From Nanobdellati archaeon (GTDB lineage Archaea; Nanobdellota; Nanobdellia; Woesearchaeales; JAADFO01): a DNA stretch of 27,703 nt. The stretch's first letter is position 1, and each line of letters starts with the position of its first letter. The translations under genes were made by a program, and so were the position numbers. The stretch spans positions 1-27,703 of the forward strand of contig JAADFO010000053.1 of NCBI GenBank assembly GCA_013152815.1, read 5' to 3'. Positions 2,791-26,013 of the stretch are shown here, piece by piece. Below the pieces are notes generated by a model. It was not told where the DNA came from, ran no database searches, and worked only from the letters and a program-made list of their open reading frames with translations.

Positions 2791-2799
2791 AACAATAAG

Positions 2800-3588: not shown

Positions 3589-3589
3589 A

Positions 3590-4528
3590 ATGAACCTCAT
3601 CCCAGACAGTAGCTTTATGGATCCCGAAGATGTCAAGCTAGAGGGACTCATCAACGCCGCTCAGGATGAGATAGCAGGTGCAAAAGACCCGAAGATCTAT
3701 GTCGTCAACCTCATCGAAGACATCTTCCATCCGAACATGAAGAAACTCATCGCACAGATTGATGCCTACGGAGACCCCGGGAAGTCGTTAATACCTTTCT
3801 TCCAGGACCACATGAATGCTGCAAGCTTTCTCAACAGCATCGGTTATACCTCTTTCAGACCAGACGAAGTCGCAAGGCTCTTTAATGTAGTCACAAGGAT
3901 GATCATTGAAGATTCCATTCGCTCCAATAATGTTGAGCTTGATAACCTGATCGTTCCTGACATGCTTTCCCGAGAACTGACAACCAAGACAAACCAGAAG
4001 TTACAGACCATTGAACAAGATATCTACTTCAATCCCGAAGAACTCACACAGTATGGATATCTGAGGGATAAGGCTTTTGATTTCATGGACCGCCAGTCCG
4101 GAGAGTTAGATTATGATCTCCTCTTTGACCAAGGCATGAAAGATCTTAAAGTCGGACAATCACATAAAGAACACATCTACCTAAAATATTGGTTGACGCA
4201 GGCGTTCCTGCACCATGAAGGGATCATACACCAGGACACCATCGAAAGCATGGCTCAACTGAAAAGAACCTACAAAAAACAAGCAGAAGAGTATCTTGAG
4301 CAGCTTAGAGAAGAAGGCGGTCCGGTCTCTGCAACCGACAAGAGAGACGGGGCTCTCATGATCAAGAATATGCATCCCACGTATAATGCGGGCAACTATG
4401 CAGGAAAGTTCATGCAATTCAGAGAACGTAAGATCCTGGCCGCGTTAAAGGAGTTAGGCATCTGCAAGGGAGAAGGCGCTTTCCCGAACATGCAAGATAA
4501 GTCCAGAGATACGCAAAAATTCTGCTGA
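3590..4528 (+). CDS. Hypothetical protein, 312 aa, soluble, no recognisable domain. Third gene of the operon.
   Basis: The ATG overlaps the preceding stop (taaaATG). Long ORF with the same low-GC composition as its operon neighbours. Confidence 0.65.
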   Translation: MNLIPDSSFMDPEDVKLEGLINAAQDEIAGAKDPKIYVVNLIEDIFHPNMKKLIAQIDAYGDPGKSLIPFFQDHMNAASFLNSIGYTSFRPDEVARLFNVVTRMIIEDSIRSNNVELDNLIVPDMLSRELTTKTNQKLQTIEQDIYFNPEELTQYGYLRDKAFDFMDRQSGELDYDLLFDQGMKDLKVGQSHKEHIYLKYWLTQAFLHHEGIIHQDTIESMAQLKRTYKKQAEEYLEQLREEGGPVSATDKRDGALMIKNMHPTYNAGNYAGKFMQFRERKILAALKELGICKGEGAFPNMQDKSRDTQKFC

Positions 4529-4727: not shown

Positions 4728-5096
4728 TCATTTCTTCTTATAGCCGAATAATTTATTGTATTTATCATGATCCAGATACTCAAGAATAAATGCAATTATT
4801 TCTACTTCGTCACCAATAAGCGTATAGAGAAGCCTCCAATAGCCGACAAGTTCAACTCTAAAAAGTTTATCTGTTCCGTAACGATTGGCAACTTTGTTAT
4901 TTATGTATTTCCTGGGTATCAAATCACCAAAATAAGGATTTGCTTTTATGTTTCGAATGGCTGTATTAATTGAAGTGAGTAGTTGTTCATATGTTGGCTT
5001 CTTATTTATCTTTTTTCCTTTGGCAACGCATTCTTGTAACGCCTTAAACTCTTCATATGCTTCATCATCAAATTTCACAACTACTTGCTTATCCAT
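4728..5096 (-). CDS. RelE/ParE-family type II toxin.
   Basis: C-terminal ...KLFRVELVGYWRLLYTLIGDEVEIIAFILEYLDHDKYNK matches the RelE/ParE pattern [FY]R..LG.YR[LI][LI]Y.[VLI]...V.I..I..R...Y, as in archaeal aRelE. The N-terminus begins VVKFDDEAYEEFKAL. Its start lies 1 nt after the stop of the upstream small gene. Very AT-rich. Confidence 0.65.
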   Translation of the reverse strand: MDKQVVVKFDDEAYEEFKALQECVAKGKKINKKPTYEQLLTSINTAIRNIKANPYFGDLIPRKYINNKVANRYGTDKLFRVELVGYWRLLYTLIGDEVEIIAFILEYLDHDKYNKLFGYKKK

Positions 5097-5097
5097 C

Positions 5098-5382
5098 TTA
5101 CATTACAGTGACCGCTTTCTTAAGCTTAATTTTTAGCTTATTACTTATGTCCTCTTTGTAGATCCAGATTATTCCTGCCTCTAGCATTGCAATCTTTCCG
5201 CTCTCTTCCAAATAAGATAAGATCAGATTCAATGTCGGTCTCATTATTTTCTTGGCAAGTCGTCTATCTATTTCATTTTTGGATAATGGCTCTTTTGCAG
5301 CTTTCATTATAGTCTCCACATTAAGTATAGTATCAAGCCGCGGGTAATGTAAAACTCGTTTCAATGCTTGCATCATAGTCAC
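5098..5382 (-). CDS. Putative antitoxin or transcriptional regulator with a winged-helix-like region (LSKNEIDRRLAKKIMRPTLNLILSYLEESGKIAMLEAGIIWI), cognate partner of the RelE/ParE toxin.
   Basis: 94-aa ORF immediately upstream of, and co-directional with, the toxin (1-nt gap). A BRE/TATA-like aaaaggtttatatat sits ~45 nt upstream on the minus strand (about 5408-5422). Confidence 0.5.
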   Translation of the reverse strand: MTMMQALKRVLHYPRLDTILNVETIMKAAKEPLSKNEIDRRLAKKIMRPTLNLILSYLEESGKIAMLEAGIIWIYKEDISNKLKIKLKKAVTVM

Positions 5383-5768
5383 CTATAAACTTATATCATA
5401 GCATAAGTACATATCATATATAAACCTTTTCTTTCTAGAGGAGACAGTGACCGTAAAGGTATAACCCAGAAGAGCTTTTTAGGACAATGAAACCGACTAT
5501 CTTGAATGAGCCCGGAGATGCGCAGACACCCCATAATATGCGCAAATACTTCATAATATGTATGTGTGCTTGAGGGAAACCATAGGTTGACCGAAACATA
5601 CTTCGGGCTTCAGGATCGAAAAAGTACAGTGCACGGCAATCAAAGATTGCTGGCATCCCAAAAATCTAGAGATTTTTGAGGACAACCGCTAGGTTGCGAA
5701 CAGATCTGAGCCCAGAGATACACAAAAATTTCTGATTCTTGGATATCCCTGTCTCATTTCCAAGAAAA

Positions 5769-5884
5769 TGAGCCCAGAGAGATTTGAACTCCCGACCCCA
5801 CGGTTACTTTCGGACAGCGTCTGAAAGGAGCAGACGCCAGTCTGCTAAGAGCCGTGTGCTCTAGCCAGGCTGAGCTATGGGCCC
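5769..5884 (-). tRNA. tRNA-Lys(CTT) with a ~41-nt intron at the canonical 37/38 position; no encoded CCA.
   Basis: Reverse complement folds by hand into a cloverleaf: acceptor GGGCCCA/TGGGCTC plus discriminator A; D-arm GCTC-AGCCTGGCTA-GAGC; anticodon stem CACGG/CCGTG with loop CTCTTA[intron]A, giving anticodon CTT; variable GGGTC; T-arm GGGAG-TTCAAAT-CTCTC. Confidence 0.85.
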
Positions 5885-7352: not shown

Positions 7353-7470
7353 CCATATAGATAACAGAGAGCAGTTTTTAAAGGATCATATTGTTCATTT
7401 CCGTTACATTTAAATATCAGTATACAAATTAGGCTACTAATAGGGAAAACTATGATTCGCTGGCCATAAG

Positions 7471-15685: not shown

Positions 15686-16300
15686 CTATGAAATGTGAAG
15701 ATTGGCGCTGTTCATATACAGGCGATGTGAGGCACGTTCTTTCTTTGTCATCTCTTTAAGCGAGGTATCCCGGCCCATGGCTTTTTCAACAAACTGATCG
15801 ATATGTTCTTTTGGAGGTATCTCAGAAAAATAGACCAGATTACCTGCTCCAAGGGGAACATCCCAGAGACGGTGCCTGAAGATGGGCGTCGTCAGACCAT
15901 CCCTATTCTCACCCCACTTTGAGATGACCAATCCATCTTCCTGAACATAGCCTGCATGGCTGAGCAGAAGGTCGTGATAGTGCTGCTCAGAATCATAGTG
16001 TTTCACCTGTATGAAATACCAGACAACACCCCCCTTCCCCGGTTTAACATCCTCAGAGACGGTCAGACTTTCTACGAGCGCGTCCACGCCTTTAATGAGA
16101 TCAGGACCCTCTTTCCCCAGAACATGGTTGAAACAATTATGATAACGTAACGCTTCAGGATGATCTGCAGCAGGCTCAATGCCCATCTTGGCCATCCGTT
16201 CTTCGACAGTTGACCGTTCCCCCCGATTGTATCCCAGAGTGATCTGTAGACGACGGATGTATTGATCCAGATTCTTGAAAAAGGATTGTGTGTTATCCAT
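15686..16300 (-). CDS. Hypothetical protein, 204 aa.
   Basis: Long ORF of backbone-like composition, convergent with the preceding cluster. No motif recognised. Confidence 0.5.
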   Translation of the reverse strand: MDNTQSFFKNLDQYIRRLQITLGYNRGERSTVEERMAKMGIEPAADHPEALRYHNCFNHVLGKEGPDLIKGVDALVESLTVSEDVKPGKGGVVWYFIQVKHYDSEQHYHDLLLSHAGYVQEDGLVISKWGENRDGLTTPIFRHRLWDVPLGAGNLVYFSEIPPKEHIDQFVEKAMGRDTSLKEMTKKERASHRLYMNSANLHIS

Positions 16301-16516
16301 GATTGCCTGCTGTTGGTCGCTCTCAATAAGGGAGAGATGAGATTCGGAAACAAACCATCACAAAACCATCTCACATATTCAGAACACAACCTCTCTTTAA
16401 AAAAGTTACTATCAGAGAGTGATATTTTTCCTTGTTTTCAGGATTGCGACTTTGGCAAAGAAACTAGCCCCTCCTGGAATAGCGGAAGATAGCCTCATTC
16501 TTTGGAGCTCGAGAAG

Positions 16517-16909
16517 TTACCTTAGTCTTTTTTTGATATGTTCAACCAGTGGTTCAAACAACGCCTGTGATATGGCGAGGGCATTTTCAGCTTCTTCTGG
16601 TCTGGGTTTATATCCGTAGTAGTTAATGTTGTGTCTCAGTCTCCTCATGTTATCGAGGATGCTTAGCGGTCGGGTAGTGTTCACTTTTAAGGTAAGTAGC
16701 TCCTTGATGGGCGTTATATGGTCTTCTGATTCGATGCCTTTCTCTGTCAGCAACGCATCTCCAAGCATCCTGAAGGATTCGTAGATATTGCGGATGATGG
16801 TTGCAGAAGATTCTTCTGTGACTGGCAGGGAAAGGGTGAACTTCATATCCCGTTCAGCAGCCTGAAGAATGCTCAGTGCATTTTTCCGGTCTGGTCTTTT
16901 ATACCTCAT
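16517..16909 (-). CDS. HEPN-domain protein, putative toxin of a HEPN/MNT pair.
   Basis: 130-aa all-alpha-looking protein with a C-terminal ...NMRRLRHNINYYGY segment resembling the HEPN R-x(3-6)-H motif. Its ATG overlaps the stop of the upstream MNT gene by 4 nt (ATGA). AT-rich. Confidence 0.55.
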   Translation of the reverse strand: MRYKRPDRKNALSILQAAERDMKFTLSLPVTEESSATIIRNIYESFRMLGDALLTEKGIESEDHITPIKELLTLKVNTTRPLSILDNMRRLRHNINYYGYKPRPEEAENALAISQALFEPLVEHIKKRLR

Positions 16910-17493
16910 GGTCTGACCTCCAAGAACCCCTCAAGCACTATGCCGTTTGCAATATTTGAGAATAAATTTATGTCTATCTTGTTGCGTGTGAATATGTGTA
17001 GATTAACAGGAACATCTTTTCTATATCCGAACCTGGGCATCCTGCCCATCTCGATTATTCTCACATCTTTATCGCTATTCACTTCAACTGCTATGTCAAC
17101 ATCACTTTTTTCTGTATCATCCCCTTTTCGGTAGCTTCCGAAAAGCACTATCGCGTTTGCGATGCCCACGATCTCCTGTATTTGGTTTTTTAGACTCTTG
17201 TTGTAAGCTTCAAACACCATCGATAGGTTGAACGCAATTTTTTTTGTGTAATTGTAAGGATGACTCCGGTTGCACGCAATCCGCCAAGCTTTGCCATACA
17301 CTTTTTTTATTAAGAATTCTTCTTCAACCATCCTTTCTACAATCTTCTTTGCAGTCGTTTTTGATATCTTGAGATACTCAGCAAGATCATTTAATCCCGC
17401 TTCCGTCTCGGGAAAAGAGAAAAACCAGGAGAGCACCTTATTATAGGCTTCATTTAGTTCAACCAGTCCAACATTTTCCAATCTCTTCGGCAT
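16906..17493 (-). CDS. Minimal nucleotidyltransferase (MNT) with an N-terminal winged-helix DNA-binding extension; putative antitoxin of the HEPN/MNT pair.
   Basis: NTase motif LFGSYRKGDDTEKSDVDIAVEV (GS...DxD). N-terminal region LAEYLKISKTTAKKIVERMVEEEFLIKK is wHTH-like. Lies upstream of the HEPN gene with a 4-nt overlap. Confidence 0.65.
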   Translation of the reverse strand: MPKRLENVGLVELNEAYNKVLSWFFSFPETEAGLNDLAEYLKISKTTAKKIVERMVEEEFLIKKVYGKAWRIACNRSHPYNYTKKIAFNLSMVFEAYNKSLKNQIQEIVGIANAIVLFGSYRKGDDTEKSDVDIAVEVNSDKDVRIIEMGRMPRFGYRKDVPVNLHIFTRNKIDINLFSNIANGIVLEGFLEVRP

Positions 17494-17499
17494 ATGAGC

Positions 17500-17537
17500 T
17501 GGTAACGAGAAGAACTATATAAACTTTTTGGTTACCA
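17500..17537 (-). promoter_or_regulatory. Promoter/operator of the MNT-HEPN operon: BRE/TATA-like aaaaagtttatatag flanked by a 7-bp inverted repeat tggtaac...gttacca.
   Basis: Seen directly: arms at 17500-17506 and 17531-17537 bracket the TATA-like element, ~25 nt upstream of the MNT ATG (minus strand). Confidence 0.4.
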
Positions 17538-17647
17538 ATCGGTAATTATGAGAACCAGATGAGTTTTTTTAGAACCGGTTTATGAGAGTTAAAAGAAATA
17601 ATGCAAACATAGAGCTCCCGACAGCATCATCACTAACAGGTGAACTC

Positions 17648-17666
17648 TAGCCCCGCCCGGATTCGA
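17648..17666. repeat. Direct repeat A: 19-nt copy of the 3' end of tRNA-Gln (tagccccgcccggattcga); attL/attR-like.
   Basis: Identical to 23570-23588 (the genuine tRNA 3' end plus 2 nt of flank); a third partial copy lies at 23477-23494. Confidence 0.7.
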
Positions 17667-17716
17667 GACTATGAAATTCTCCTCAGGAAAGGTTTATAAA
17701 GAGTATTTGTCTAAAA

Positions 17717-20700
17717 CTAAAGGGGATCATTGCCAGCCAATGAACCATTTGAAATTGGCCTGGGCTCAGGCGGAAGAGAATATGGATCGTTCTCATAACC
17801 ATGATTAAAGGGGGAAATGTTTAAGACTTTACCATCCACCACCAAAGTACTGCTCCCTCCCGGATCAAAGCCCATTGCATGAACCATGCCGTGTTTTAGG
17901 AGTATCCTTGCCATGTCCCTATGTGTGGCGCCGACTGACTCTCTAATACGCCCATTAACCACTAAGACTGAAAGATCTCCTTTTTTATCCAAGCCAACGG
18001 CAATCTTCGGACCTCTCATATCAACATAGTCGACACGCGCAGCTTGAGTTTTGATGGAGTTGCTTGATTTCCATCCTTCCCTTTCCATTTCAATCCTGAT
18101 TTTCTCATTTTTCAATAACATTGGTCCCGCTTCGATGCCATGCATTGTCTTATTGAACTCAGTCATAGTAATTGAGACCTCTGACCCGATATCCCAGCCT
18201 GTTGGAGCCTTGTTTCTAGGGAAAGAAAGGGTCAATCCGACCGGAATGATGCTCAGTCGCTCCCCCTGTTTCGTTTTGATGATTTCCTTGATAATGTTTC
18301 CTGCCAAACGATAGATCACCCTCCCATTGCCTTCGATGGTGTCTTCAGTGTGCATGAGATCATAAAAGCAGGGATCATCGCCTGGGTTCTTTCGGTTGTA
18401 GTGTTTTTTGGTTAACACACAAGCATGACGATTATGTGAGATAATCATCCCCTTGGAGCAATTGACTCGTCTGATTTCCAGTTTACCGGTAGAGTGGAAT
18501 AATATCGCCGGCTTATTAAAGAGGGGTGGAGAAATTATTCTATTGTCAGAGATCACCAGTCCCAGAGGACTACCCACATATGCTTTTGACAAGCCAAGTT
18601 TCCCAACAAGTTCTGCATTGAGAATGTACCCGCCATTCCACACAATTCGTGCTTTGCCCTTGTATCGACGCTCAAAAAGCTTTATGAAATGTTGAGCCGC
18701 GTGAGGTAGGTGGTTGCTAAACGAAGCATTAAACGTCCATTTCTTCTTAGCGTTGCTTAAGTTGGCTTTCGCAAGCACACCCGACCAAGGAAGGCCGTCA
18801 ACGTAGACTCCGCGCACATAGGAATATTCTACATCATCCTTTCCTTTTTTTCTTTGTTTATCGATTTTCTTCAATACGGTCATGACAGGAGAACCCTTTT
18901 CCTCAGCATCCTTTCGAAGAATGTTGAGTATCGATTTCTCCCCATGTTCTTTGCATAATCGTTTATACAGCTTACTATGAAAAGCATTCGAGAACTCTGA
19001 TGCTGTCTGAATGGGAGTAGGGTATGCTATTGTCGGCCGTAATCCCGGGGGAACCCATTCGACAAATCCCGAATCAAGCGGAATTCCCATTACCTTTGAA
19101 GTGAGTATATCCTTCACTTTTCCGATATGAAATGTTTCCAGATCCACAATATCGGTCATCATCGCTGAGTGTTCTCCAAACGTCATGATGTATCCATGAT
19201 GCTTTTTCACATAGCTGAGCGTATTCAGCGCATCCTTCCCTAACTGTCGGAAGTCTATCCCAACAGACATTTGCTCACTCGTGACAATTTTGCAGACATC
19301 ATGTTTATAAAGAAGCCTCAGTTCATGGTTTTCTCCGAGCAACAGATACTCACGCAATTCTTCAGCAGTGAAATAATTACCGAGGGGTTTTCGTTGTTTA
19401 ATGATGAAAATAGGTGCCAGTTTCTTCCTTAGCAACTCTTTTTCAGTTATGGGTTGCTCAAGGCTCAAACCAAGTCGCTCTCTTACGGTGTGTACGATGA
19501 AAATCTCCAGTTCATGTCTGATATATTTGCCTGGAAAGTAGGCAATCGGCACATTGCTGCGAAGTTTCTTAATTAATCGAGAACTATGATCAATGTGCAG
19601 ATTAGAACAATCAGCTAGTTGACAAAAAGCATTCCGTATATCGGTCAGGTGGTGGGGACGTCTTTCGTATCTGATTTTCAATGCGGAGGGATTAATAATT
19701 GAATTAAAGAGAAGGTTAATGACACCAGTTATTTCCTGATGAGTAAATTTTCTATATGGGAAGAGATCTTTATTTCTATGCCTATACGAGAAAGAATGGT
19801 CTATCCTCACAGAGATAGAGCCCTTTTTATAATGGAAGATATTATCAACGCAGTTATAGAATGCATGTCTTTTTTCTTTTGAGATATACTGGGTCTGGTT
19901 ATAGCTGTCAATAAGATATTTCGCAAATTGGAATGCTCTCCCTTTTATTTCCTGTTCCTCGACGCGGAAATAACTTGGATCAATAAGAGATTTAAGATAG
20001 ATCATAAAAGCCATTTTCCCATATCCCGGGAGATATTGGCGGTTTTTTTTATGAAGGATATCCTTCAGCGCAGGATAAGTTCTCGTCAATCTCCGTTCAT
20101 ACTTAACCATCTCTGAAATCGTTGCTTTCATCCCCTGCCGCCGGGGAAGAAGCTGAAGATATAGGCTATGGAGTATAGACTCCATGTTCTTCCGCAGGTT
20201 CTCCATGTTGTATCTTCTTTCCGCTACCTGTCTGTTGTGGTCCGCATCAACCAGATACTCATGAGGATGAAGTATTCTGCTGGCTATCTCATGGATGATC
20301 GAATGGGTGATCGAGTTGGAAAATTCAATTACGCGCAACCGCTGGCCGCTGGATAGATGCTCCCCGATAACTTCCGCATACACCTGGACAGGATAATATC
20401 TTCTCGTGAAGATGGGAGAGCGACTTGCAGCCGATTCAATGATCGGAAGACCCCTCCCTTCGGTTTCACTCGGAAGAAGAATCAAGTTTGCAATATTGTA
20501 GATATCCGAGATATCTATCGGATTAGAGAATCTTCTTTTGAATTCAGGTTTATCAGTCTCAGAAAAGGTGAAGGCCAGGAAGATTCTGTCTTTTAGACCT
20601 GAGGGGATCGTTTTAAGTGACGCGGAGAAATCAGAGAGGAGCTTCTTGAAATATGAAGCATGACCTTCTGCAATAGGCCCGGTAATCAATAAAGTGAGGG

Positions 20701-21868
20701 TAAGCCTCTTGTTGCTCTTAAAAAACAGAGTGAACTCCGGATGATGAAACAATTTATTGATCAACGTAAAGTTAACTTCGATCTTTTTTCGCTCGATGAT
20801 TCTGGTGGGTTGGAGAAAGACAATATTATTTTCTATAAAGTCAATTGTGCCTTTCTTAAAACCTGTTATGAACGGCGCGGGAGAGGTATCAAATTTATCG
20901 CCCTGCAACTGATCAATCGGCGTTACAGAAAGTTTTCTTTTATATCGGCTTAATATTCTTGAAATCTGGATGAATGTCTCTATTTTTCTTCTTTCGGTAT
21001 TATTCTTAAACTCATCCAAGTCGATTGCTGTTCCAATTTCGGCTATATTTGCCGGATTGTGGCCAAAGCGTTCTATTAAACATTTCGACTGAGCAGTGTT
21101 TATATTCACAGACATCCATGTCGCGGATTCCCAGGGAAAGATTACGTTGATAACTGAAAAGAATTCACCAATATCTGAATTCGTGAAGAAAAAATCTCTC
21201 GGGCCGGGTTTTAAGCCTTTTGTCTTGATGTCTATCTTTTTATTCCCGCCTTCCCAATAAAAATCGTGATTATTGCTGAGAACAGGAATATTCAGGTATT
21301 CCGAGAGAAGAACACAAGCTAAGGCCAATGACACATTTCCAGGATTTGAATTTACGTTGAGAAGATAGAGGAGTTGAATGCCATTCTTTTCTATATAACT
21401 GCCAAGCTTTTCGCAGATGACAAGAGTTTCCTTCCAGAACCTTTTTATTAGGTTGTTGTATATAGTGCCGCCTCGAGAAATTTTTTTATGGAAAAAATCA
21501 TCGTACAGGTCCCATTTTTTGAAACCGTTTATTTCGTCAATTTGGAATTTTTTTATGTCGGGCTGGATCAAGTGGCTTGACTCAGGATAGAATTCTCCAG
21601 CGATATAGTGAATTTTTTGCGTGTTCAGGATAGATCTGAAAATTTTAGCATATTTTGCGCATTCCATGGTGACTCCATCAATGGCATAATAGAAAGTAAC
21701 GAAGGCAACTCCCTTGGCTATGTGCTTCTTAAAATTTTCAAACGTCCCTTCAAATTGGATCGGCGGAGCGGTTCTTCTATCGCGTAATCTATCAATGAAC
21801 AGGCCTAGATCGAACCATGTAGCGATCTTCTCTGACTTTAATCTGTTCATCATTGATTTTGTTTCCAT
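17717..21868 (-). CDS. Giant (1383 aa) multidomain glycan-modifying protein. N-terminal/central GT-B (GT4-like) glycosyltransferase region, ~500 aa of unassigned sequence, and a C-terminal phosphodiester-glycosidase (NAGPA 'uncovering-enzyme'-like, DUF2233) domain.
   Basis: GT4 E-x7-E-type block PSETEGRGLPIIESAASRSPIF. C-terminal IAVGLDKKGDLSVLVVNGRIRESVGATHRDMARILLKHGMVHAMGFDPGGSSTLVV matches the phosphodiester-glycosidase pattern TAIG..DG.L.LVVVDGR...G.TL.ELA.LM..LG...ALNLDGGGSST. Confidence 0.7.
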   Translation of the reverse strand: METKSMMNRLKSEKIATWFDLGLFIDRLRDRRTAPPIQFEGTFENFKKHIAKGVAFVTFYYAIDGVTMECAKYAKIFRSILNTQKIHYIAGEFYPESSHLIQPDIKKFQIDEINGFKKWDLYDDFFHKKISRGGTIYNNLIKRFWKETLVICEKLGSYIEKNGIQLLYLLNVNSNPGNVSLALACVLLSEYLNIPVLSNNHDFYWEGGNKKIDIKTKGLKPGPRDFFFTNSDIGEFFSVINVIFPWESATWMSVNINTAQSKCLIERFGHNPANIAEIGTAIDLDEFKNNTERRKIETFIQISRILSRYKRKLSVTPIDQLQGDKFDTSPAPFITGFKKGTIDFIENNIVFLQPTRIIERKKIEVNFTLINKLFHHPEFTLFFKSNKRLTLTLLITGPIAEGHASYFKKLLSDFSASLKTIPSGLKDRIFLAFTFSETDKPEFKRRFSNPIDISDIYNIANLILLPSETEGRGLPIIESAASRSPIFTRRYYPVQVYAEVIGEHLSSGQRLRVIEFSNSITHSIIHEIASRILHPHEYLVDADHNRQVAERRYNMENLRKNMESILHSLYLQLLPRRQGMKATISEMVKYERRLTRTYPALKDILHKKNRQYLPGYGKMAFMIYLKSLIDPSYFRVEEQEIKGRAFQFAKYLIDSYNQTQYISKEKRHAFYNCVDNIFHYKKGSISVRIDHSFSYRHRNKDLFPYRKFTHQEITGVINLLFNSIINPSALKIRYERRPHHLTDIRNAFCQLADCSNLHIDHSSRLIKKLRSNVPIAYFPGKYIRHELEIFIVHTVRERLGLSLEQPITEKELLRKKLAPIFIIKQRKPLGNYFTAEELREYLLLGENHELRLLYKHDVCKIVTSEQMSVGIDFRQLGKDALNTLSYVKKHHGYIMTFGEHSAMMTDIVDLETFHIGKVKDILTSKVMGIPLDSGFVEWVPPGLRPTIAYPTPIQTASEFSNAFHSKLYKRLCKEHGEKSILNILRKDAEEKGSPVMTVLKKIDKQRKKGKDDVEYSYVRGVYVDGLPWSGVLAKANLSNAKKKWTFNASFSNHLPHAAQHFIKLFERRYKGKARIVWNGGYILNAELVGKLGLSKAYVGSPLGLVISDNRIISPPLFNKPAILFHSTGKLEIRRVNCSKGMIISHNRHACVLTKKHYNRKNPGDDPCFYDLMHTEDTIEGNGRVIYRLAGNIIKEIIKTKQGERLSIIPVGLTLSFPRNKAPTGWDIGSEVSITMTEFNKTMHGIEAGPMLLKNEKIRIEMEREGWKSSNSIKTQAARVDYVDMRGPKIAVGLDKKGDLSVLVVNGRIRESVGATHRDMARILLKHGMVHAMGFDPGGSSTLVVDGKVLNISPFNHGYENDPYSLPPEPRPISNGSLAGNDPL

Positions 21869-22074
21869 TACATTTCAACATCCTTTTGGTTTAAGCAGTG
21901 ACAATCAGAAATTCCGCCGCTCGGAGCTACCCTCGACCTAAACGCCCAAAAACAATGTTTCTGGCGTCCAAAAAATCAAGGATTTTTTTAAGAGGCGAGG
22001 GTATGACGCTCCTCGCATCAATAGACGGAATTTCTGGTCCCTTTGGGGTCCCAGCAACCGACGGTTGCTGTGGA

Positions 22075-22109
22075 ATGCAAAGGTTTCACGGTCATGCAAA
22101 GGTTTCACG
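22075..22109. repeat. Perfect 16-nt direct repeat atgcaaaggtttcacg x2 (period 19) in the upstream region of the giant gene; adjacent 8-bp-stem hairpin cagcaacc-gac-ggttgctg at 22052-22070.
   Basis: Seen directly in the intergenic region between the GT4 stop (22145) and the giant-gene start (21868). Confidence 0.6.
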
Positions 22110-22144
22110 TACTGAAGCGCGGGGTATGAAACCCATTGCATGAA

Positions 22145-23305
22145 TCATTTTTTTGCTCTTTTGAAATCTTTTAAAGCCTTTTTATAGGCAGCTTCATAGT
22201 CATCGACCATCCTTTCGACTGTGAATTTCTCCTGGACGTGCCTTCTACATTCCATGCGGTCAATCTTATCGATGTTTCTCAGTGCAGCAATCAACCCTTC
22301 AATATTAGGTTTTCCTTGCTTATTCCATGGTTTAACTATGAATCCTGTCTTGCCTTCATCAACTATTTCAGAAACAGACCCCCTATTGAAAGCAATAACC
22401 GGTGTCCCGCAAGCCATTGCCTCTATCATTACCAGTCCGAAAGGTTCTTCCCATTGAATAGGAAACAAGAGAGCCTTGGCGTTTCTTGCATATTGGAAAA
22501 CTAGTTTCCTTGGTAAAAAGCCCCTTTTCGTGATCTTTCCTTTGATGAATGGCTTTATTTTTTTATCCCAATACTCTAATTGGTCACTGTGAGGTTCCCC
22601 TAACAAAATCAGTTTATTGTCGGTCTTTCTGGCGACCTGGATTGCTTCAGAGACGCCCTTCTCTTCCCGGAACCTGCCAATGAACAGAAGATATTCACCG
22701 GTTTTTGTAGAAAACTTTATTTTCTTTAGATTGCTTAAACCATGATAAATGGTTGCAGCATAGTTTAGATTCGGAAGTGGCTTTCTTTGAGAGTCACTGA
22801 TGGAAACGTAGTATTGGGTGTTAGCATAAAACTTTAAGATTTGCTGGTTGTTGTAAGAATCTAACGGAGAATGCAGGGTAGAGATCGTAGGGATCGAGAC
22901 AAGCGGAGCATAATAAGCTGTCCTGATATCAAAATGACTATGGATAATATCAAACTGCCCCTTCGCGGCCATTTGGTAGGCTTTAGAGATTAAAAGATGT
23001 TCATAGGGTATATGATTCTTAACACCGGTGTTTCTATCACTGAGACTATCCTTCTTTGTAACGCTGACTAGACGCGCAGAAGTCTTTGAGTTACCTGAAG
23101 CGAATAGAGTAACATCGTGGCCCCGTTTTATTAATTCTTCAGAGATATCGTATACGACAGATTCGACAGCTCCGGCCCGCCCTTGCTTCAGAAATTTTTT
23201 AATTGGAGGAATCCTAATAAAATTTGAAGCAAGCATTGCAATTCTCAGTTTTTTCATGTTATCAGGCGATTTCAATTGTTTGCATACATCATAAATTGTT
23301 TGCAT
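22145..23305 (-). CDS. GT4-family (GT-B fold) glycosyltransferase.
   Basis: Canonical C-terminal block EEPFGLVMIEAMACGTPVIAFNRGSVSEIVDEGKTGF. N-terminal ...KKLRIAMLASNF... suggests the true start may be the internal MKKLRIAML, 16 codons downstream. Confidence 0.9.
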   Translation of the reverse strand: MQTIYDVCKQLKSPDNMKKLRIAMLASNFIRIPPIKKFLKQGRAGAVESVVYDISEELIKRGHDVTLFASGNSKTSARLVSVTKKDSLSDRNTGVKNHIPYEHLLISKAYQMAAKGQFDIIHSHFDIRTAYYAPLVSIPTISTLHSPLDSYNNQQILKFYANTQYYVSISDSQRKPLPNLNYAATIYHGLSNLKKIKFSTKTGEYLLFIGRFREEKGVSEAIQVARKTDNKLILLGEPHSDQLEYWDKKIKPFIKGKITKRGFLPRKLVFQYARNAKALLFPIQWEEPFGLVMIEAMACGTPVIAFNRGSVSEIVDEGKTGFIVKPWNKQGKPNIEGLIAALRNIDKIDRMECRRHVQEKFTVERMVDDYEAAYKKALKDFKRAKK

Positions 23306-23313
23306 ACATCATA
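23275..23313. repeat. Tandem duplication of 19 nt (attgtttgcatacatcata x2, period 20) overlapping the annotated ATG of the GT4 gene.
   Basis: Seen directly. Supports the internal start for the GT4 gene, with the repeat lying in its 5' leader or promoter. Confidence 0.6.
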
Positions 23314-23348
23314 TTTAAGGTTATAGTATGTACCTTGAGGATTATAAC

Positions 23349-23474
23349 TCAGATCATACAATCAGTTCTGACTGAATCTCTTCTGTCACGAAGTCCATCG
23401 ATGAATAACCCTGGATCAAACCACGTTGAGATCTGCTCTGATCTCAATTCCTGCATCATCTGTTTTACAGTCAT
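23349..23474 (-). pseudogene. 41-codon fragment paralogous to the 5' end (N-terminus) of the giant gene at 17717-21868.
   Basis: Own translation MTVKQMMQELRSEQISTWFDPGLFIDGLRDRRDSVRTDCMI* versus giant N-terminus METKSMMNRLKSEKIATWFDLGLFIDRLRDRR..., about 70% identical. DNA is also ~70% identical (23398-23470 vs 21790-21862). It ends 2 nt from att-like repeat B. Confidence 0.6.
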
Positions 23475-23476
23475 TC

Positions 23477-23494
23477 TATAGCCCCGCCCGGATT
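23477..23494. repeat. Direct repeat B: 18-nt partial copy of the tRNA-Gln 3' end plus flank (tatagccccgcccggatt).
   Basis: Identical to 23568-23585; 93 bp from the genuine tRNA 3' end. Confidence 0.7.
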
Positions 23495-23569
23495 GCTTTG
23501 CTGCCAAAAACGCCAAGCGTTTTTGAGCATGATCGAACGCGTGCTGGAAGAATACTTTCGAAGAAAGTA

Positions 23570-23687
23570 TAGCCCCGCCCGGATTCGAACCGAGGTCCCG
23601 ACCTGTCTCTCAACAGAGAGGCGCTCAGAAACGCCTGCGTTTCTGTTGTCCAGAGGGTCGGATGATTGGCCACTACACTACGGGGCT
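23570..23687 (-). tRNA. tRNA-Gln(CTG) with a ~45-nt structured intron at position 37/38; A1-U72 acceptor pair; no encoded CCA.
   Basis: Reverse complement AGCCCCG-TA-GTGT-AGTGGCCAA-TCAT-C-CGACC-CTCTGG[intron]A-GGTCG-GGAC-CTCGG-TTCGAAT-CCGGG-CGGGGCT-A. The 5' half closely resembles archaeal tRNA-Gln as I recall it (AGCCC...GTGTAGTGGCC.ATCATCC). The intron contains two hairpins (gaaacgc/gcgtttc and ctctc/gagag). Confidence 0.8.
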
Positions 23688-23820
23688 GTTGGTGTCAGTT
23701 TTGGGGCTTGACGAGCCCTGAATTGCCGAACGATGCCGTTCGGGCATATTCATCGCGAGGAAACCCCATTCGCATCCTGTGGGCGAAAAGGTGACTTGCT
23801 ATGCAAGGCACCGAGCACAG

Positions 23821-23855
23821 CTACACTACGGGGCTGCGTGTTGTCAGTTCTGGGA
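23821..23855. repeat. Duplicated copy of the tRNA-Gln 5' end (first 15-16 nt, ctacactacggggctg) plus ~20 nt of its 5' flank.
   Basis: 23821-23855 compared with 23673-23706: 16 identical nt, then (t)tg(g)tgtcagtt(c/t)tggg. 135 bp of unrelated sequence separates the copies. Confidence 0.6.
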
Positions 23856-23862
23856 CGTGTTT

Positions 23863-23880
23863 CTATTTATAAGCTTTTCT
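23863..23880 (-). promoter_or_regulatory. BRE/TATA-like promoter (minus-strand gaaaagcttataaatag) pointing toward the duplicated tRNA 5' fragment and the tRNA-Gln gene.
   Basis: TATA-like element ~29 nt upstream of the fragment's A1 equivalent. No comparable TATA is visible immediately upstream of the genuine tRNA 5' end. Confidence 0.35.
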
Positions 23881-23986
23881 TGAGTAATCTGCTCTGACAA
23901 TCATCGCCGATCCAGAAGACCGGTTCGGGCCTTCTCCAGAGCAGGGTTCTACCGATAAAGCAAAAGAACAACGCAACAACAAAAGA

Positions 23987-24406
23987 TCACTGTATCTCAA
24001 CAAGGAACTTCTTCGGCGAGAGCATCCGGATGACTGCTTTCCCTCTCTTCTTCCAGTTCCTCGTCAGTTCCTTAGGAAAGCGGATGAAATGAGAGCTACC
24101 ATCAAAATTGAGGGAACGGTCGAATCGAACAATGTCTTTGTCGTCCATCTTTTCCAGAAGCCAAAGATATTCTAATCTTGGTGATTCGTCAGGCTCGATA
24201 TAGGTTTCTCCGCACTTCTCACATACCCAAGCATTATAGGTGACAGAAATTCCTTTCACTGTGAGTTTTTTCTGTTTTTTCTTTGTCAACTGTCCGCAGC
24301 AATGAAAAGGGCCTTTAAATGCATCTTCGTCAATAGCAACATCCTTTATTTCTTCCAGGATATCTGACTCTTTGATATCCTCTTCGTCAAATTCATCGTG
24401 TTTCAT
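23987..24406 (-). CDS. YgiT-type zinc-ribbon (MqsA-like) protein with a C-terminal SpoVT/AbrB-like segment; putative antitoxin.
   Basis: HCCGQL...TVKGISVTYNAWVCEKCGETYIEPDE is a YgiT-type C4 zinc finger. C-terminal IRFPKELTRNWKKRGKAVIRMLSPKKFLVEI is AbrB/MazE-like. The ATG overlaps the stop of the upstream small gene (ATGA). Confidence 0.55.
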   Translation of the reverse strand: MKHDEFDEEDIKESDILEEIKDVAIDEDAFKGPFHCCGQLTKKKQKKLTVKGISVTYNAWVCEKCGETYIEPDESPRLEYLWLLEKMDDKDIVRFDRSLNFDGSSHFIRFPKELTRNWKKRGKAVIRMLSPKKFLVEIQ

Positions 24407-24663
24407 TTTTTCCTATACCTGTTCTTCTGCCAACGAGATGAAGGATATGCTGTGATGACAAACAAAGCTTCTTTCTTCAATACAGCAATAATCGTAAGAT
24501 AGCGTGGATAAGAAACGATAATGAGAGTTTTTCCATTGGCTGCATTGAAAAATCTTGGATAACCTAAACGAAGACCCATCAAGACTTCCTTTCTCGCTAC
24601 CCGATGGACACAAGCTATCTTTACCGCGACATCGTAGGGTATGATAATTTCTTTGAATCGCAT
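24403..24663 (-). CDS. DUF4258-like small protein (RelE-fold-type predicted toxin), partner of the YgiT zinc-ribbon protein.
   Basis: 86 aa; ...GKTLIIVSYPRYLTIIAVLKKEALFVITAYPSSRWQKNRY resembles the DUF4258/BrnT-like C-terminus (...vITvYp...krY). Gene order toxin-first with a 4-nt overlap, as in DUF4258/MqsA-family pairs. Confidence 0.45.
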   Translation of the reverse strand: MRFKEIIIPYDVAVKIACVHRVARKEVLMGLRLGYPRFFNAANGKTLIIVSYPRYLTIIAVLKKEALFVITAYPSSRWQKNRYRKK

Positions 24664-24852: not shown

Positions 24853-25461
24853 ATGAAAGAGATAGCAAGAGGAGCTGAAGCAGTCATCTACAGAGACAGG
24901 GACATGGTGGTGAAGGAACGGATAGCCAAAGGATACCGGCTCAGGGAGATAGATGACAGGCTGCGGAAGTCTCGGACCAGGCGCGAGGCAAAAGTCTATG
25001 ACAAGCTCAAGGACCTTTCCTTCATCCCTGCCCTGGAAACCATGGACGACAAGGAGATGAGACTGGAGATCGAATACATCGCCGGCAAGAAACTGGCAGA
25101 CCATCTCGAGGGACTCGACTGGAAGAAGCTCTGCAGAGAGATCGGCAGGAAGATCGCAGAGCTCCACAACCGGCACATCATCCACGGCGACCTCACCACC
25201 TCCAACATGATCCTCAGGGAGAAGGATGGAAAGGTGTGTCTCATCGACTTCGGACTGTCGTTCTTCTCCCACAAGATCGAGGATATGGCCGTGGACCTGC
25301 ATCTCATCAGGGAGGCGTTGGAGTCGAAGCACCACACCATCCGGGAGCAGGGCTTCAGGGAACTGCTCAGAGGATATAAGGAAGAGGCGAAGGAAGCTGA
25401 GAAAGTGATCGCCCGGCTCGAACAGGTCGAAGCCAGGGGAAGGTACAAGACAAAGCATTAG
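24853..25461 (+). CDS. bud32: Bud32/PRPK (Kae1-associated serine/threonine kinase, KEOPS subunit).
   Basis: MKEIARGAEAVIY..., catalytic loop IIHGDLTTSNMIL, DFGLS; ~200-aa atypical kinase typical of archaeal Bud32. The track start 24715 is an upstream over-extension. Confidence 0.85.
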   Translation: MKEIARGAEAVIYRDRDMVVKERIAKGYRLREIDDRLRKSRTRREAKVYDKLKDLSFIPALETMDDKEMRLEIEYIAGKKLADHLEGLDWKKLCREIGRKIAELHNRHIIHGDLTTSNMILREKDGKVCLIDFGLSFFSHKIEDMAVDLHLIREALESKHHTIREQGFRELLRGYKEEAKEAEKVIARLEQVEARGRYKTKH

Positions 25462-25754: not shown

Positions 25755-25835
25755 AACATCTTTATTCTCTCTTCCATCCACTCTTCTCCCGAGATCACCA
25801 TCTTGCTGGGCCCTTCTTCTTAGCACCCAATACTA

Positions 25836-26013
25836 TACCAAAAGGTATAAATACCAGATGGTATAAAGATACGATCGATGACCGAAAAGTATTTATATCT
25901 CAGTATACAAAAAGGTATATAGACCATATGGACTATCAGCGATCGATACGCAAAACATATATATGAGTATACTAAAAGGTATATAGGCCAAACGGTATAA
26001 GCGTGATGCGACA
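25836..26013 (+). repeat. Degenerate tandem array of ~67-bp units (about 2.7 copies), each with a BRE/TATA-like core aaaaggtata(a/t)a(t/g)(a/g)cca.a.gg and a gatcgat box.
   Basis: Unit starts (tac.aaaagg) at 25836, 25905 and 25971. The core resembles the promoter upstream of the RelE toxin-antitoxin operon (aaaaggtttatata). The array is intergenic between rpl35ae and the ATPase gene. Confidence 0.6.

What the first reader, a model, noticed from the sequence alone, without database searches (positions are those of the whole stretch)
17648..23588. Three direct copies of the tRNA-Gln 3' end delimit a 5.8-kb glycosyltransferase islet (att-like architecture) with no integrase
tagccccgcccggattcga occurs at 17648-17666 (A), 23477-23494 (B, 18 nt including 2 flank nt) and 23570-23588 (C, the genuine tRNA 3' end). 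The pattern tRNA-93 bp-B-5.8 kb-A is what tandem or successive site-specific integrations at a tRNA gene leave behind. The cargo is not viral or plasmid-like; it consists of two glycan-modifying enzymes. Either the element is a decayed integrative element that lost its integrase, or this is a tRNA-linked recombination hotspot exchanging surface-glycan cassettes.
Basis: seen in the sequence. Interest (0 to 1): 0.6.

Follow-up and report, generated by a model that had tools for sequence, protein, structure and literature searches.

The report
Foreign gene stack behind archaeal tRNA-Gln
In this DPANN archaeon contig, a glutamine tRNA gene is followed by a stack of horizontally acquired gene modules, each bracketed by a short copy of the tRNA's end; this is the familiar scar of repeated site-specific insertion, seen here in an unusual host and with no recombinase gene left on the contig.

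Summary
The 19-mer is exact at 17648-17666 (A) and 23570-23588 (C). B is a 16-nt exact copy at 23479-23494 (18 nt with flank). Shuffles give none. C is the 3' end of a genuine intron-containing tRNA-Gln(CUG) at 23570-23687 (-).

The architecture is larger than reported:
- A fourth, decayed copy (A2, 16465-16480, 13/16) lies behind a MntA/HepT-like toxin-antitoxin pair.
- A 16-nt copy of the tRNA 5' end (D, 23821-23836) keeps the ancestral TATA promoter.
- A relic of the first ~32 codons of another allele of the 1383-aa cargo gene starts 4 nt after B.

All genes from 15686 to 24663 have GC3 of 0.37-0.49, against 0.69-0.77 for core genes. The 1383-aa protein belongs to a largely bacterial family. 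It is 85% and 75% identical to copies in two other DPANN contigs that sit in different contexts. No integrase is on the 27.7-kb contig, which is the whole record.

Best reading (about 0.6): an accretion array of integrase-less integrated remnants at tRNA-Gln, plus one cassette replacement. This is a known kind of feature in a new host. No empty site could be found, because no close relative is available. A "surface glycan" role is unsupported.

The parts
23570..23687 (-). tRNA-Gln(CUG) gene with a ~45-nt intron after the anticodon loop. It is the anchor of the array.
   Evidence: Rfam RF00005 scores 39 bits. The gene is conserved in L024.
23570..23588 (-). Copy C: the genuine tRNA 3' end (tRNA nt 100-118 including the discriminator).
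23495..23569 (-). 75-nt hairpin-rich mini-insert between C and B. One of its hairpins resembles the tRNA intron hairpin (18/21).
   Evidence: The fold z-score is -2.6. The local alignment has p of about 0.014.
23477..23494 (-). Copy B: 16 nt exact (23479-23494), plus 2 flank nt shared with C.
23349..23474 (-). Pseudogene relic. It is the first ~32 codons of a 1383-aa-family gene (MTVKQMMQELRSEQISTWFDPGLFIDGLRDRR) followed by unrelated codons and a stop. Its ATG lies 4 nt after the B core.
   Evidence: BLASTN identity is 77% to the L019 gene start (E 9e-13), 75.6% to L025 and 66% to the resident gene.
22145..23257 (-). GT4 glycosyltransferase (370 aa from the annotated start).
   Evidence: Pfam Glycos_transf_1 at 4e-28 and Glyco_transf_4 at 9e-15. 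NCBIfam gives BshA-like and MshA-like matches.
21909..22151 (-). 243-nt intergenic segment that is absent from the otherwise colinear L025. It contains a tandem CGTGAAACCTTTGCAT repeat (two copies) and several hairpins.
17717..21868 (-). 1383-aa protein with a weak central GT-B glycosyltransferase-like match (residues ~343-565, below the curated cut-offs) and a C-terminal NAGPA/phosphodiester glycosidase domain. The family is largely bacterial.
17648..17666 (-). Copy A: 19 nt exact, 50 nt downstream of the stop codon of the 1383-aa gene.
16517..17493 (-). Toxin-antitoxin-like pair: a MntA-like nucleotidyltransferase (16906-17493) and a weak, sub-threshold HEPN match (16517-16909). This is the module between A and A2.
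   Evidence: GC3 is 0.44-0.49.
16465..16480 (-). Copy A2: a decayed tRNA 3'-end copy, TAGCCCCTCCTGGAAT (13/16; 14/19). It is in the same orientation, intergenic, and 36 nt after the HEPN stop.
   Evidence: The call is post hoc. About 0.18 such hits are expected in the whole window, and far fewer in this one gap on this strand.
15686..16300 (-). 204-aa ORF of unknown function. It is the last gene of foreign composition before the core genes.
   Evidence: There are no family hits. GC3 is 0.49.
23688..23709 (-). Leader of the present tRNA copy. It resembles the L024 leader but has no TATA box upstream.
23710..23820 (-). ~111-nt hairpin-rich mini-insert between D and the present tRNA leader.
   Evidence: The fold z-score is -2.9.
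23821..23836 (-). Copy D: a 16-nt exact copy of tRNA nt 1-15 plus 1 leader nt. It is the displaced ancestral 5' end.
23837..23944 (-). Ancestral upstream flank of tRNA-Gln, with the TATA box TTATAAATA at 23864-23872. It is homologous to the region upstream of the L024 tRNA.
   Evidence: L024 104-224 aligns to 23820-23944 at 70%. The alignment is A1.
23987..24663 (-). Two small ORFs (a 139-aa YgiT/MqsA-type zinc-finger protein and an 86-aa protein) inserted between the tRNA and Bud32. They are absent in relatives.
   Evidence: In L024 the tRNA-to-Bud32 gap is ~163 nt, against 1165 nt here.
24853..25461 (+). Bud32 (KEOPS kinase). It is the conserved core flank, and the tRNA-Gln/Bud32/L35Ae synteny is ancestral.

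Best explanation
This is a tRNA-anchored genomic island array in a DPANN archaeon, built by successive site-specific insertions at the tRNA-Gln(CUG) gene.

Proposed mechanism (inferred): each incoming circular DNA carried a short sequence identical to the end of the tRNA (a 16-19-nt core). A tyrosine-type integrase, now lost or encoded elsewhere in the genome, recombined that sequence with the gene. The recombination regenerated an intact tRNA and pushed the previous insert, with its partial tRNA copy, further downstream.

Resulting order, read in the tRNA direction:
- tRNA (C)
- 75-nt remnant
- B
- glycosyl-enzyme module
- A
- MntA/HepT-like toxin-antitoxin module
- A2 (oldest and decayed)
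- 204-aa ORF
- core genome

A comparable event at the 5' end displaced the original promoter and the first 15 nt of the gene (D). The present tRNA is probably transcribed from that displaced promoter.

The glycosyl module was then remodelled. A GT4 + 1383-aa gene block of the kind seen in L025 replaced most of an earlier 1383-family gene, leaving that gene's first ~32 codons next to B.

Shown: the repeats, their orientation and order, the foreign composition, the horizontal origin and patchy distribution of the cargo, the gene relic, and the absence of an integrase on the contig.

Inferred: that a site-specific recombinase made the junctions, and the order of events.
For: - Exact, same-sense copies of the tRNA ends have sharp borders, and shuffles give none.
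- The layout is the canonical one: an intact tRNA followed by distal partial 3' copies. The most distal copy is the only decayed one (A2 13/16 against exact A, B and C), as accretion predicts.
- All genes from 15686 to 24663 have GC3 of 0.37-0.49, against 0.69-0.77 for core genes (GC profile).
- The cargo is far closer to other lineages than the core genes are. The 1383-aa protein is 85% and 75% identical to two DPANN proteins that sit in different contexts with no tRNA-Gln or GT4 nearby. The GT4 has an 89% relative. The best Bud32 relative in the whole database is 70%.
- The 1383-aa family is otherwise bacterial (names, contexts, distances).
- In relatives L001, L005, L009 and L024 the tRNA-Gln sits directly next to Bud32. 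L024 shares D's promoter and flank, which shows that D is the ancestral 5' end.
- The D leader is only ~75-81% identical to the present leader, while the tRNA part is 16/16. This is expected if the two came from different sources and crossed over within the identical block.
- The second tRNA on the contig, tRNA-Lys(CUU), also has copies of its own 3' end downstream (12/12 and 13/14). The process is therefore not peculiar to one locus.
- Published precedent: archaeal att cores can be this short, with a median of 17 bp in Thaumarchaeota, and arrays form by re-use of one site (PMC6563490). The P. yayanosii island PYG1 lies between a partial and a complete tRNA-Gln (PMC9897764). Integrase-less att-flanked remnants and their accretion are described as CIMEs (PMC5704250).
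Against: - No integrase, integrase fragment, attP or excised form was found. No SSV-type split integrase flanks the repeats, and the non-coding gaps are under 300 nt.
- No relative close enough to show an empty site exists in the collections searched.
- Four of the five inserts bracketed by tRNA-end copies are tiny (50-190 nt), which is awkward for 'decayed elements'.
- The foreign composition does not stop at A or at the tRNA, so the repeats do not by themselves delimit the foreign DNA.
- B lies 4 nt from a start codon, which leaves no room for a typical element arm.
- The window is a metagenome-assembled contig, and its junctions could not be checked against reads.
Confidence: 0.6

Rival explanations
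1. No site-specific recombinase was involved. The locus is a homologous or illegitimate recombination hotspot. DNA taken up from related DPANN cells recombines using the conserved tRNA gene as a homology patch. The tRNA-end fragments are then leftovers of duplicated or imported tRNA-Gln copies that were later trimmed by deletion.
For: - The gene relic next to B shows that at least one event was a replacement within the cargo gene rather than an att-to-att insertion.
- The present tRNA has its own L024-like leader, and D's 16th base matches L024 rather than the present tRNA. This hints that a whole imported tRNA-Gln copy is present.
- The hairpin in the C-B spacer resembles the tRNA intron hairpin (18/21, p of about 0.014), as if B belonged to a decayed intron-containing copy.
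- No integrase is present.
Against: - Random deletions should leave fragments of varied length and position. Here every relic is the extreme 12-19 nt of a tRNA end with a sharp border.
- A 16-19-nt homology patch is poor substrate for homologous recombination.
- Campbell-type homologous integration of a circle carrying a whole tRNA would leave two full copies, and these are not seen (one search finds one tRNA in 17400-24000).
Confidence: 0.2
2. The tRNA gene works as a cassette platform. Promoter-less ORF cassettes bracketed tightly by tRNA-end cores are captured behind the tRNA by a trans-acting recombinase and expressed by read-through from the tRNA promoter. In function this would resemble an integron.
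For: - All modules are co-oriented with the tRNA.
- The B core ends 4 nt before the relic's ATG.
- A and A2 lie 50 and 36 nt after stop codons.
- Homology with L019 is limited to the coding sequence.
- tRNA-Lys shows a similar pattern.
Against: - No integron-type integrase, attC-like structure or repeated cassette-end motif is present. The sequences next to the cores share nothing (inspection).
- The toxin-antitoxin module and the 204-aa ORF have 154-164 nt of upstream DNA of their own.
- The case rests on one locus.
Confidence: 0.08
3. The arrangement is an assembly artefact. The contig would be a chimera joined at tRNA-derived k-mers shared between genomes in the metagenome.
For: - The window is a complete MAG contig.
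- Composition shifts strongly within it.
- A related Logan contig breaks exactly at the tRNA 3' end.
Against: - The shared blocks are 16-19 nt, which is shorter than the k-mers assemblers use.
- The composition shifts lie at ~15.7 kb and ~24.7 kb, not at the repeats.
- The GT4 to 1383-aa gene adjacency is independently seen in L025.
- The tRNA-Bud32-L35Ae adjacency is seen in L024; L023 keeps the Bud32-L35Ae pair but has no tRNA there.
- D is contiguous with the L024-like flank.
Confidence: 0.05

Closest known systems
Archaeal integrated elements at tRNA genes. Examples are PYG1 at tRNA-Gln in Pyrococcus yayanosii, the thaumarchaeal iMGEs, and the 'gene capture' of SSV/pNOB8-type elements in Sulfolobales.
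   Same: - An intact tRNA sits at one end and a partial same-sense copy at the far end.
- The DNA in between is foreign.
- One site is re-used to give arrays.
- Short cores of about 17 bp are known in Thaumarchaeota (PMC6563490; PMC9897764).
- Gene capture after loss of the integrase is cited from my own knowledge of She et al. 2001-2004.
   Different: - No integrase or integrase fragment is present, and there are no viral or plasmid backbone genes.
- The modules hold only one to two genes each.
- The host is a DPANN archaeon.
- A copy of the tRNA 5' end with the promoter is also displaced.
CIMEs (cis-mobilizable elements) and tandem accretion in Firmicutes.
   Same: These elements have lost their integration and transfer genes but keep attL and attR. 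[quoted passage not shown]
   Different: - CIMEs are a bacterial concept tied to ICE and IME ancestry and to conjugation.
- No ICE or IME relative is known here.
- Mobilisation in cis is untested.
tRNA gene disruption by a mobile element in Caldiarchaeum subterraneum (Sugahara et al. 2012).
   Same: A 5' fragment of a tRNA gene is left upstream of the functional intron-containing copy after an element has integrated (PMC3293823).
   Different: There the 1.8-kb insert encodes a recombinase. Here the insert between D and the tRNA is ~111 nt and non-coding.
Integron gene cassettes.
   Same: This is a resemblance in function only: co-oriented genes are stacked behind a fixed site, each separated by a short recombination scar.
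   Different: There is no IntI and no attC hairpin sites. The repeated unit is the end of a tRNA.

Membership tests
tRNA-targeting integrated element / genomic island (tyrosine-integrase type) | Direct repeats identical to part of the target tRNA flank the insert, with the intact tRNA at one end. | tested here: met
   A, B and C are exact over 16-19 nt and lie on the same strand. One intact tRNA is present.
tRNA-targeting integrated element / genomic island (tyrosine-integrase type) | The inserted DNA is foreign in composition and phyletic distribution. | tested here: met
   GC3 is 0.37-0.49 against 0.69-0.77. The cargo is 85-89% identical to proteins of other lineages, while the best core-gene relative is 70%.
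tRNA-targeting integrated element / genomic island (tyrosine-integrase type) | An integrase gene lies inside the element, usually next to an att site. | tested here: not met
   No integrase hit in Pfam for any ORF of the contig; subsets also searched in PHROGs and NCBIfam without one. The non-coding gaps are under 300 nt.
tRNA-targeting integrated element / genomic island (tyrosine-integrase type) | Relatives show an empty site, or the element can be seen excised as a circle. | tested here: inconclusive
   The best relative, L024 (Bud32 70%), ends at the tRNA 3' end. The other relatives are only 52-63% identical and share no synteny downstream of the tRNA. No reads are available.
SSV-type archaeal integrative element | The integrase gene is split into int(N) and int(C) halves that border the element, because attP lies inside the gene. 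| tested here: not met
   The ORFs that overlap A, B and C are short and unrelated to integrases. The ORF that reads through B is the relic of the 1383-aa-family gene.
CIME (att-flanked element without recombination genes) | attL and attR are retained, and integration and transfer genes are absent. | tested here: met
CIME (att-flanked element without recombination genes) | The element derives from an ICE or IME by deletion and can be mobilised in cis after accretion. | not testable with these tools
   No related autonomous element was found. The 19-mer scan of viral contigs hit only whole tRNA genes. The cargo is absent from the viral, plasmid and phage collections.
Casposon | A Cas1 casposase gene and terminal inverted repeats lie inside a target-site duplication. 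| tested here: not met
   There is no Cas1 hit. The insert ends next to the cores are not inverted repeats (inspection).
Integron | An IntI integrase, attI, a Pc promoter, and cassettes that each end in an attC hairpin. | tested here: not met
   No integrase is present. The region around A shows no excess structure (z = +0.97). The module ends share no motif.

The most novel reading that the evidence does not exclude
DPANN archaea of this lineage may use tRNA genes as cassette-capture platforms. Very small units, sometimes a single ORF with only 4 nt before its ATG and ~40-50 nt after its stop, would be inserted and exchanged at 16-19-nt tRNA-end cores by a recombinase acting in trans. They would be expressed in the tRNA's orientation. 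The 50-190-nt 'mini-inserts' at both tRNAs of the contig would be empty or abortive products of the same machinery. This would be an integron-like gene-acquisition system built on tRNA ends in genome-reduced symbionts.
Probability: 0.08. Interest if true: 0.75.

Novelty: new member of a known kind. Interest (0 to 1): 0.35.

Why it matters
DPANN archaea have tiny genomes and depend on hosts, so how they gain genes is an open question. This locus gives a concrete and datable example. A tRNA gene serves as the entry point for at least three or four successive acquisitions. These include a large enzyme of bacterial type shared at 75-85% identity with two other DPANN contigs that have different gene neighbourhoods, and three toxin-antitoxin-like modules.

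It also shows a practical point. Intron-containing archaeal tRNAs missed by standard tRNA finders hide such islands from automated island callers. The mechanism itself, site-specific insertion at a tRNA followed by loss of the integrase, is well known, so the value is mainly as a documented case and as a lead to the recombinase that serves these cores.

Tried and rejected
- Chance was rejected: shuffles give 0 matches.
- Exact-protein look-ups of L35Ae and the GT4 were not on record.
- I looked for an empty site using the Bud32 flank in genome contigs, metagenome contigs and the 5.8-billion-protein collection. Only relatives at 52-70% identity turned up. They confirm the tRNA-Gln|Bud32 synteny but say nothing about the downstream side.
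- I looked for an attP by scanning viral contigs for the 19-mer. The three hits are all inside complete tRNA genes, two of them phage-encoded tRNA-Gln and one in a phage tRNA array. No integrase lies nearby.
- I tested whether the cargo is carried on viruses or plasmids. There is no relative in IMG/VR and none in PLSDB. Phages gave only two 5%-coverage NAGPA-domain hits.
- A casposon reading fails because there are no terminal inverted repeats and no Cas1.
- A retroelement primer-binding-site reading fails because no TGG precedes the complement of the tRNA end.
- The mini-inserts are not a repeated MITE-like family. They show no similarity to each other or to anything else in the window.
- Reading D plus the insert as a second tRNA fails because Rfam finds only one tRNA in 17400-24000 at E up to 10.
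- There is no further decayed copy behind the 204-aa ORF or behind the tRNA-Lys toxin-antitoxin pair.
- No direct repeats flank the two-ORF insertion upstream of the tRNA.
Full report
**Observation.** The 19-mer TAGCCCCGCCCGGATTCGA is exact at 17648-17666 (A) and 23570-23588 (C). A third copy is exact over 16 nt at 23479-23494 (B), or 18 nt counting the TA it shares with C at 23477-23478. One hundred dinucleotide-preserving shuffles gave no match. The 12-nt core with up to 1 mismatch is expected 0.07 times and occurs three times.

ARAGORN reports no tRNA in the window, and the default Rfam run found only another tRNA at 5769-5884. Searching 17400-24000 alone gives RF00005 at 23570-23687 on the minus strand at 39 bits (gathering score 29), with a ~45-48-nt insertion after the anticodon loop CUCUGGA. 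The gene is therefore tRNA-Gln(CUG) with a canonical-position intron. A Logan contig, L024, carries the same gene with an identical 3' exon, one change in the 5' exon, and an intron that differs by compensatory changes.

**Source organism.** The 1383-aa ORF is 100% identical to NOZ81099.1 of a 'DPANN group archaeon' MAG, on a contig of 27,703 nt. The window is thus the complete contig, and nothing beyond it can be read here. The core genes are archaeal: L35Ae, eIF-1A, PTH2 and Bud32.

**Gene content.** Between A and C lie two minus-strand genes.
- The first is a 1383-aa protein with a weak central GT-B glycosyltransferase-like match below the curated cut-offs (NCBIfam NF041101-like, residues 343-565) and a C-terminal NAGPA/phosphodiester-glycosidase domain (Pfam 5.9e-18; PDB 6pku, 5h3k).
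- The second is a GT4 glycosyltransferase (Pfam 4e-28; BshA-like and MshA-like).

Neither has an N-terminal or strong hydrophobic segment. 'Two glycan-type enzymes' is right, but 'surface glycan' is unsupported.

Left of A is a MntA-like nucleotidyltransferase plus a weak, sub-threshold HEPN match, a toxin-antitoxin-like pair, followed by a 204-aa ORF of unknown function. Right of the tRNA are an 86-aa ORF and a 139-aa YgiT/MqsA-type zinc-finger ORF, then Bud32 and L35Ae. No ORF of the contig gives an integrase hit in Pfam; this covers all large ORFs, including the two membrane proteins cut by the contig ends. PHROGs and NCBIfam, run on subsets of the ORFs, gave none either.

**Foreignness.** GC3 is 0.69-0.77 in core genes (Bud32, L35Ae, CMAS-like, radical SAM, Band 7, PTH2, eIF-1A). 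It is 0.37-0.49 in every gene from 15686 to 24663 (profile). The foreign-composition block is therefore about 9 kb and spans both sides of the tRNA. The A-C interval is only part of it.

**Origin of the cargo.**
- The 1383-aa protein has about 790 full-length relatives. Those that carry names are Bacteroidota, Chlorobi and Anaerolineae proteins at 48-55% identity, and the contexts inspected are bacterial, with sigma-70 and type IX secretion cargo genes nearby.
- Only two other proteins are close. One is 85% identical, in a Candidatus Woesearchaeota MAG (L019). The other is 75% identical, on a JGI contig. Both sit among different genes, with no GT4 and no tRNA-Gln nearby.
- Distances place the three close copies inside the spread of the bacterial sequences.
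- DNA identity to L019 is 83.5% and stops at the ends of the coding sequence.
- The GT4 has relatives at 89%, 76% and 73% on short metagenomic contigs. Its more distant relatives, at 50-60%, are in CPR bacteria.
- In L025 (85% DNA identity) the GT4 is followed 53 nt later by the start of a 1383-family gene. In L028 the two genes are convergent. The pair therefore travels together but is rearranged.
- The best relative of the core gene Bud32 anywhere is only 70% identical. The cargo is thus a recent horizontal acquisition from lower-GC DPANN lineages, and ultimately of bacterial type.

- *A2.* TAGCCCCTCCTGGAAT at 16465-16480 matches the core at 13/16. It is on the same strand, in the gap between the HEPN gene and the 204-aa ORF, 36 nt after the HEPN stop. 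About 0.18 such matches are expected in the whole window. A match in this particular gap and strand is unlikely, but the call is post hoc.
- *D.* A 16-nt exact copy of the tRNA 5' end lies at 23821-23836, 148 nt upstream of the gene. L024 positions 104-224, which cover its tRNA 5' end and 106 nt upstream, align to 23820-23944. D and L024 share the box AAAA(G/A)CTTATAAA about 28 nt upstream of tRNA position 1. The present tRNA copy has an L024-like 22-28-nt leader but no TATA box. D is therefore the ancestral 5' end with its promoter, displaced by a ~111-nt insert plus a second leader. The leaders are ~75-81% identical while the tRNA part is 16/16, which fits a crossover inside the identical block between DNAs of different origin.
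- *Gene relic.* From 23474, 4 nt after the B core, to about 23386 runs a relic of the first ~32 codons of a 1383-family gene (MTVKQMMQELRSEQISTWFDPGLFIDGLRDRR). It is 77% identical in DNA to L019, 75.6% to L025 and 66% to the resident gene. The homology to L025's region upstream of the GT4 begins at 23362 or earlier, right where the relic ends. An older copy of the gene once sat directly behind B, and a GT4 + 1383-gene block replaced it.

**Parallel at the second tRNA.** tRNA-Lys(CUU) lies at 5769-5884 on the minus strand and has a 43-nt intron. It has copies of its own 3' end 50 nt downstream (12/12, 5707-5718) and a further 188 nt on (13/14 including 2 flank nt, 5505-5518). A low-GC pair of small ORFs follows, which looks like a toxin-antitoxin module.

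**Relatives and the empty-site test.**
- In L001, L005 and L009 (Bud32 52-61%), tRNA-Gln(CTG) lies directly upstream of Bud32.
- In L024 (70%) the gap is ~163 nt, against 1165 nt here, so the two small ORFs upstream of the tRNA are also an insertion.
- Nothing is shared downstream of the tRNA.
- L024 begins 1 nt beyond the tRNA 3' end. The assembly graph branches exactly there, but a second tRNA-Gln isoacceptor could explain that equally well.

**Interpretation.** The layout has five relevant features:
- one intact tRNA;
- same-sense terminal copies downstream;
- only the most distal copy decayed;
- each interval filled with foreign, co-oriented genes;
- no recombinase.

This is what successive site-specific integrations at one tRNA leave after the elements decay. 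It matches archaeal iMGE arrays with short att cores (PMC6563490) and partial/complete tRNA-Gln pairs around islands (PMC9897764). It also matches the bacterial concept of CIMEs and accretion (PMC5704250). A displaced 5' tRNA fragment upstream of an intron-containing copy has precedent in Caldiarchaeum (PMC3293823). I put this reading at about 0.6.

**Unresolved points.**
- Four of the five bracketed inserts are only 50-190 nt long. They are hairpin-rich (z -2.6 and -2.9) and unrelated to each other.
- B leaves 4 nt before a start codon.
- The C-B spacer holds a hairpin that is 18/21 identical to the tRNA intron hairpin (p of about 0.014).
- D's next base matches L024 rather than the present tRNA.

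These points leave room for two rivals: a recombinase-independent history built on imported tRNA-Gln copies (about 0.2), and a cassette-platform mechanism (about 0.08). An assembly chimera is unlikely (about 0.05). The shared blocks are shorter than assembler k-mers, the composition breaks are not at the repeats, and two of the adjacencies are seen independently.

**Verdict.** The finding is a real feature and correctly read in outline. It is a new member of a known kind, an integrase-less, att-bracketed island array at a tRNA gene, in a DPANN host and with cargo of bacterial type. Interest is moderate to low (0.35).

Noticed in passing
window 5505-5884: A second intron-containing tRNA, tRNA-Lys(CUU), lies at 5769-5884 (-). 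It has partial copies of its own 3' end at 5707-5718 (12/12) and 5505-5518 (13/14). This is the same kind of scar as at tRNA-Gln, but it brackets only 50-nt and 188-nt inserts.
   Followed up: partly
window 4728-5382: Two very low-GC small ORFs (GC3 0.29 and 0.39) lie downstream of tRNA-Lys. One is a 94-aa winged-helix protein and the other a 122-aa protein whose C-terminus looks RelE/ParE-like by eye. They are probably a toxin-antitoxin pair, but no family hit was obtained.
   Followed up: partly
window 1636-4528: Three plus-strand ORFs (384, 262 and 312 aa; GC 0.43-0.48, below core) have no significant Pfam, PHROG or NCBIfam match. The only hit is a sub-threshold phage baseplate-wedge hit for the 262-aa ORF. 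This may be another foreign block.
   Followed up: no
window 25824-25995 and 7408-7428: Three ~38-nt direct repeats lie at 64-70-nt spacing (TATATCTCAGTATACAAAAAGGTATATAGACCATATGG) in the gap after L35Ae. A related 21-mer occurs upstream of the M29 peptidase gene. This could be a regulatory or promoter repeat.
   Followed up: no
window 21909-22151: A 243-nt segment between the GT4 and the 1383-aa gene is absent from the otherwise colinear contig L025. It contains a tandem CGTGAAACCTTTGCAT repeat (two copies) and several perfect hairpins.
   Followed up: partly
window 23987-24663: An 86-aa ORF and a 139-aa YgiT/MqsA-type zinc-finger ORF are inserted between tRNA-Gln and Bud32. Relatives have only ~50-160 nt there. 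No flanking direct repeats were found.
   Followed up: partly
L024 1-140 (Logan ERR10503273): The closest relative's contig begins 1 nt beyond the tRNA-Gln 3' end, so the assembly branches exactly at the att position. Its tRNA intron differs from the window's by compensatory changes.
   Followed up: partly
window 17717-21868; L019, L020-L022: The 1383-aa protein family (weak GT-B-like match plus NAGPA domain) is widespread and full-length in Bacteroidota and other bacteria. Close copies (75-100% identity) were found on only three contigs, this DPANN contig and two others, each in a different context. This is a candidate bacteria-to-DPANN transfer of a single 4.2-kb gene of unknown function.
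   Followed up: partly
window 23570-23687 and 5769-5884: ARAGORN with default settings misses both intron-containing tRNAs. The Rfam gathering run on the whole window missed tRNA-Gln, although it scores 39 bits when the region is searched alone. Automated island or tRNA annotation would overlook this locus.
   Followed up: yes
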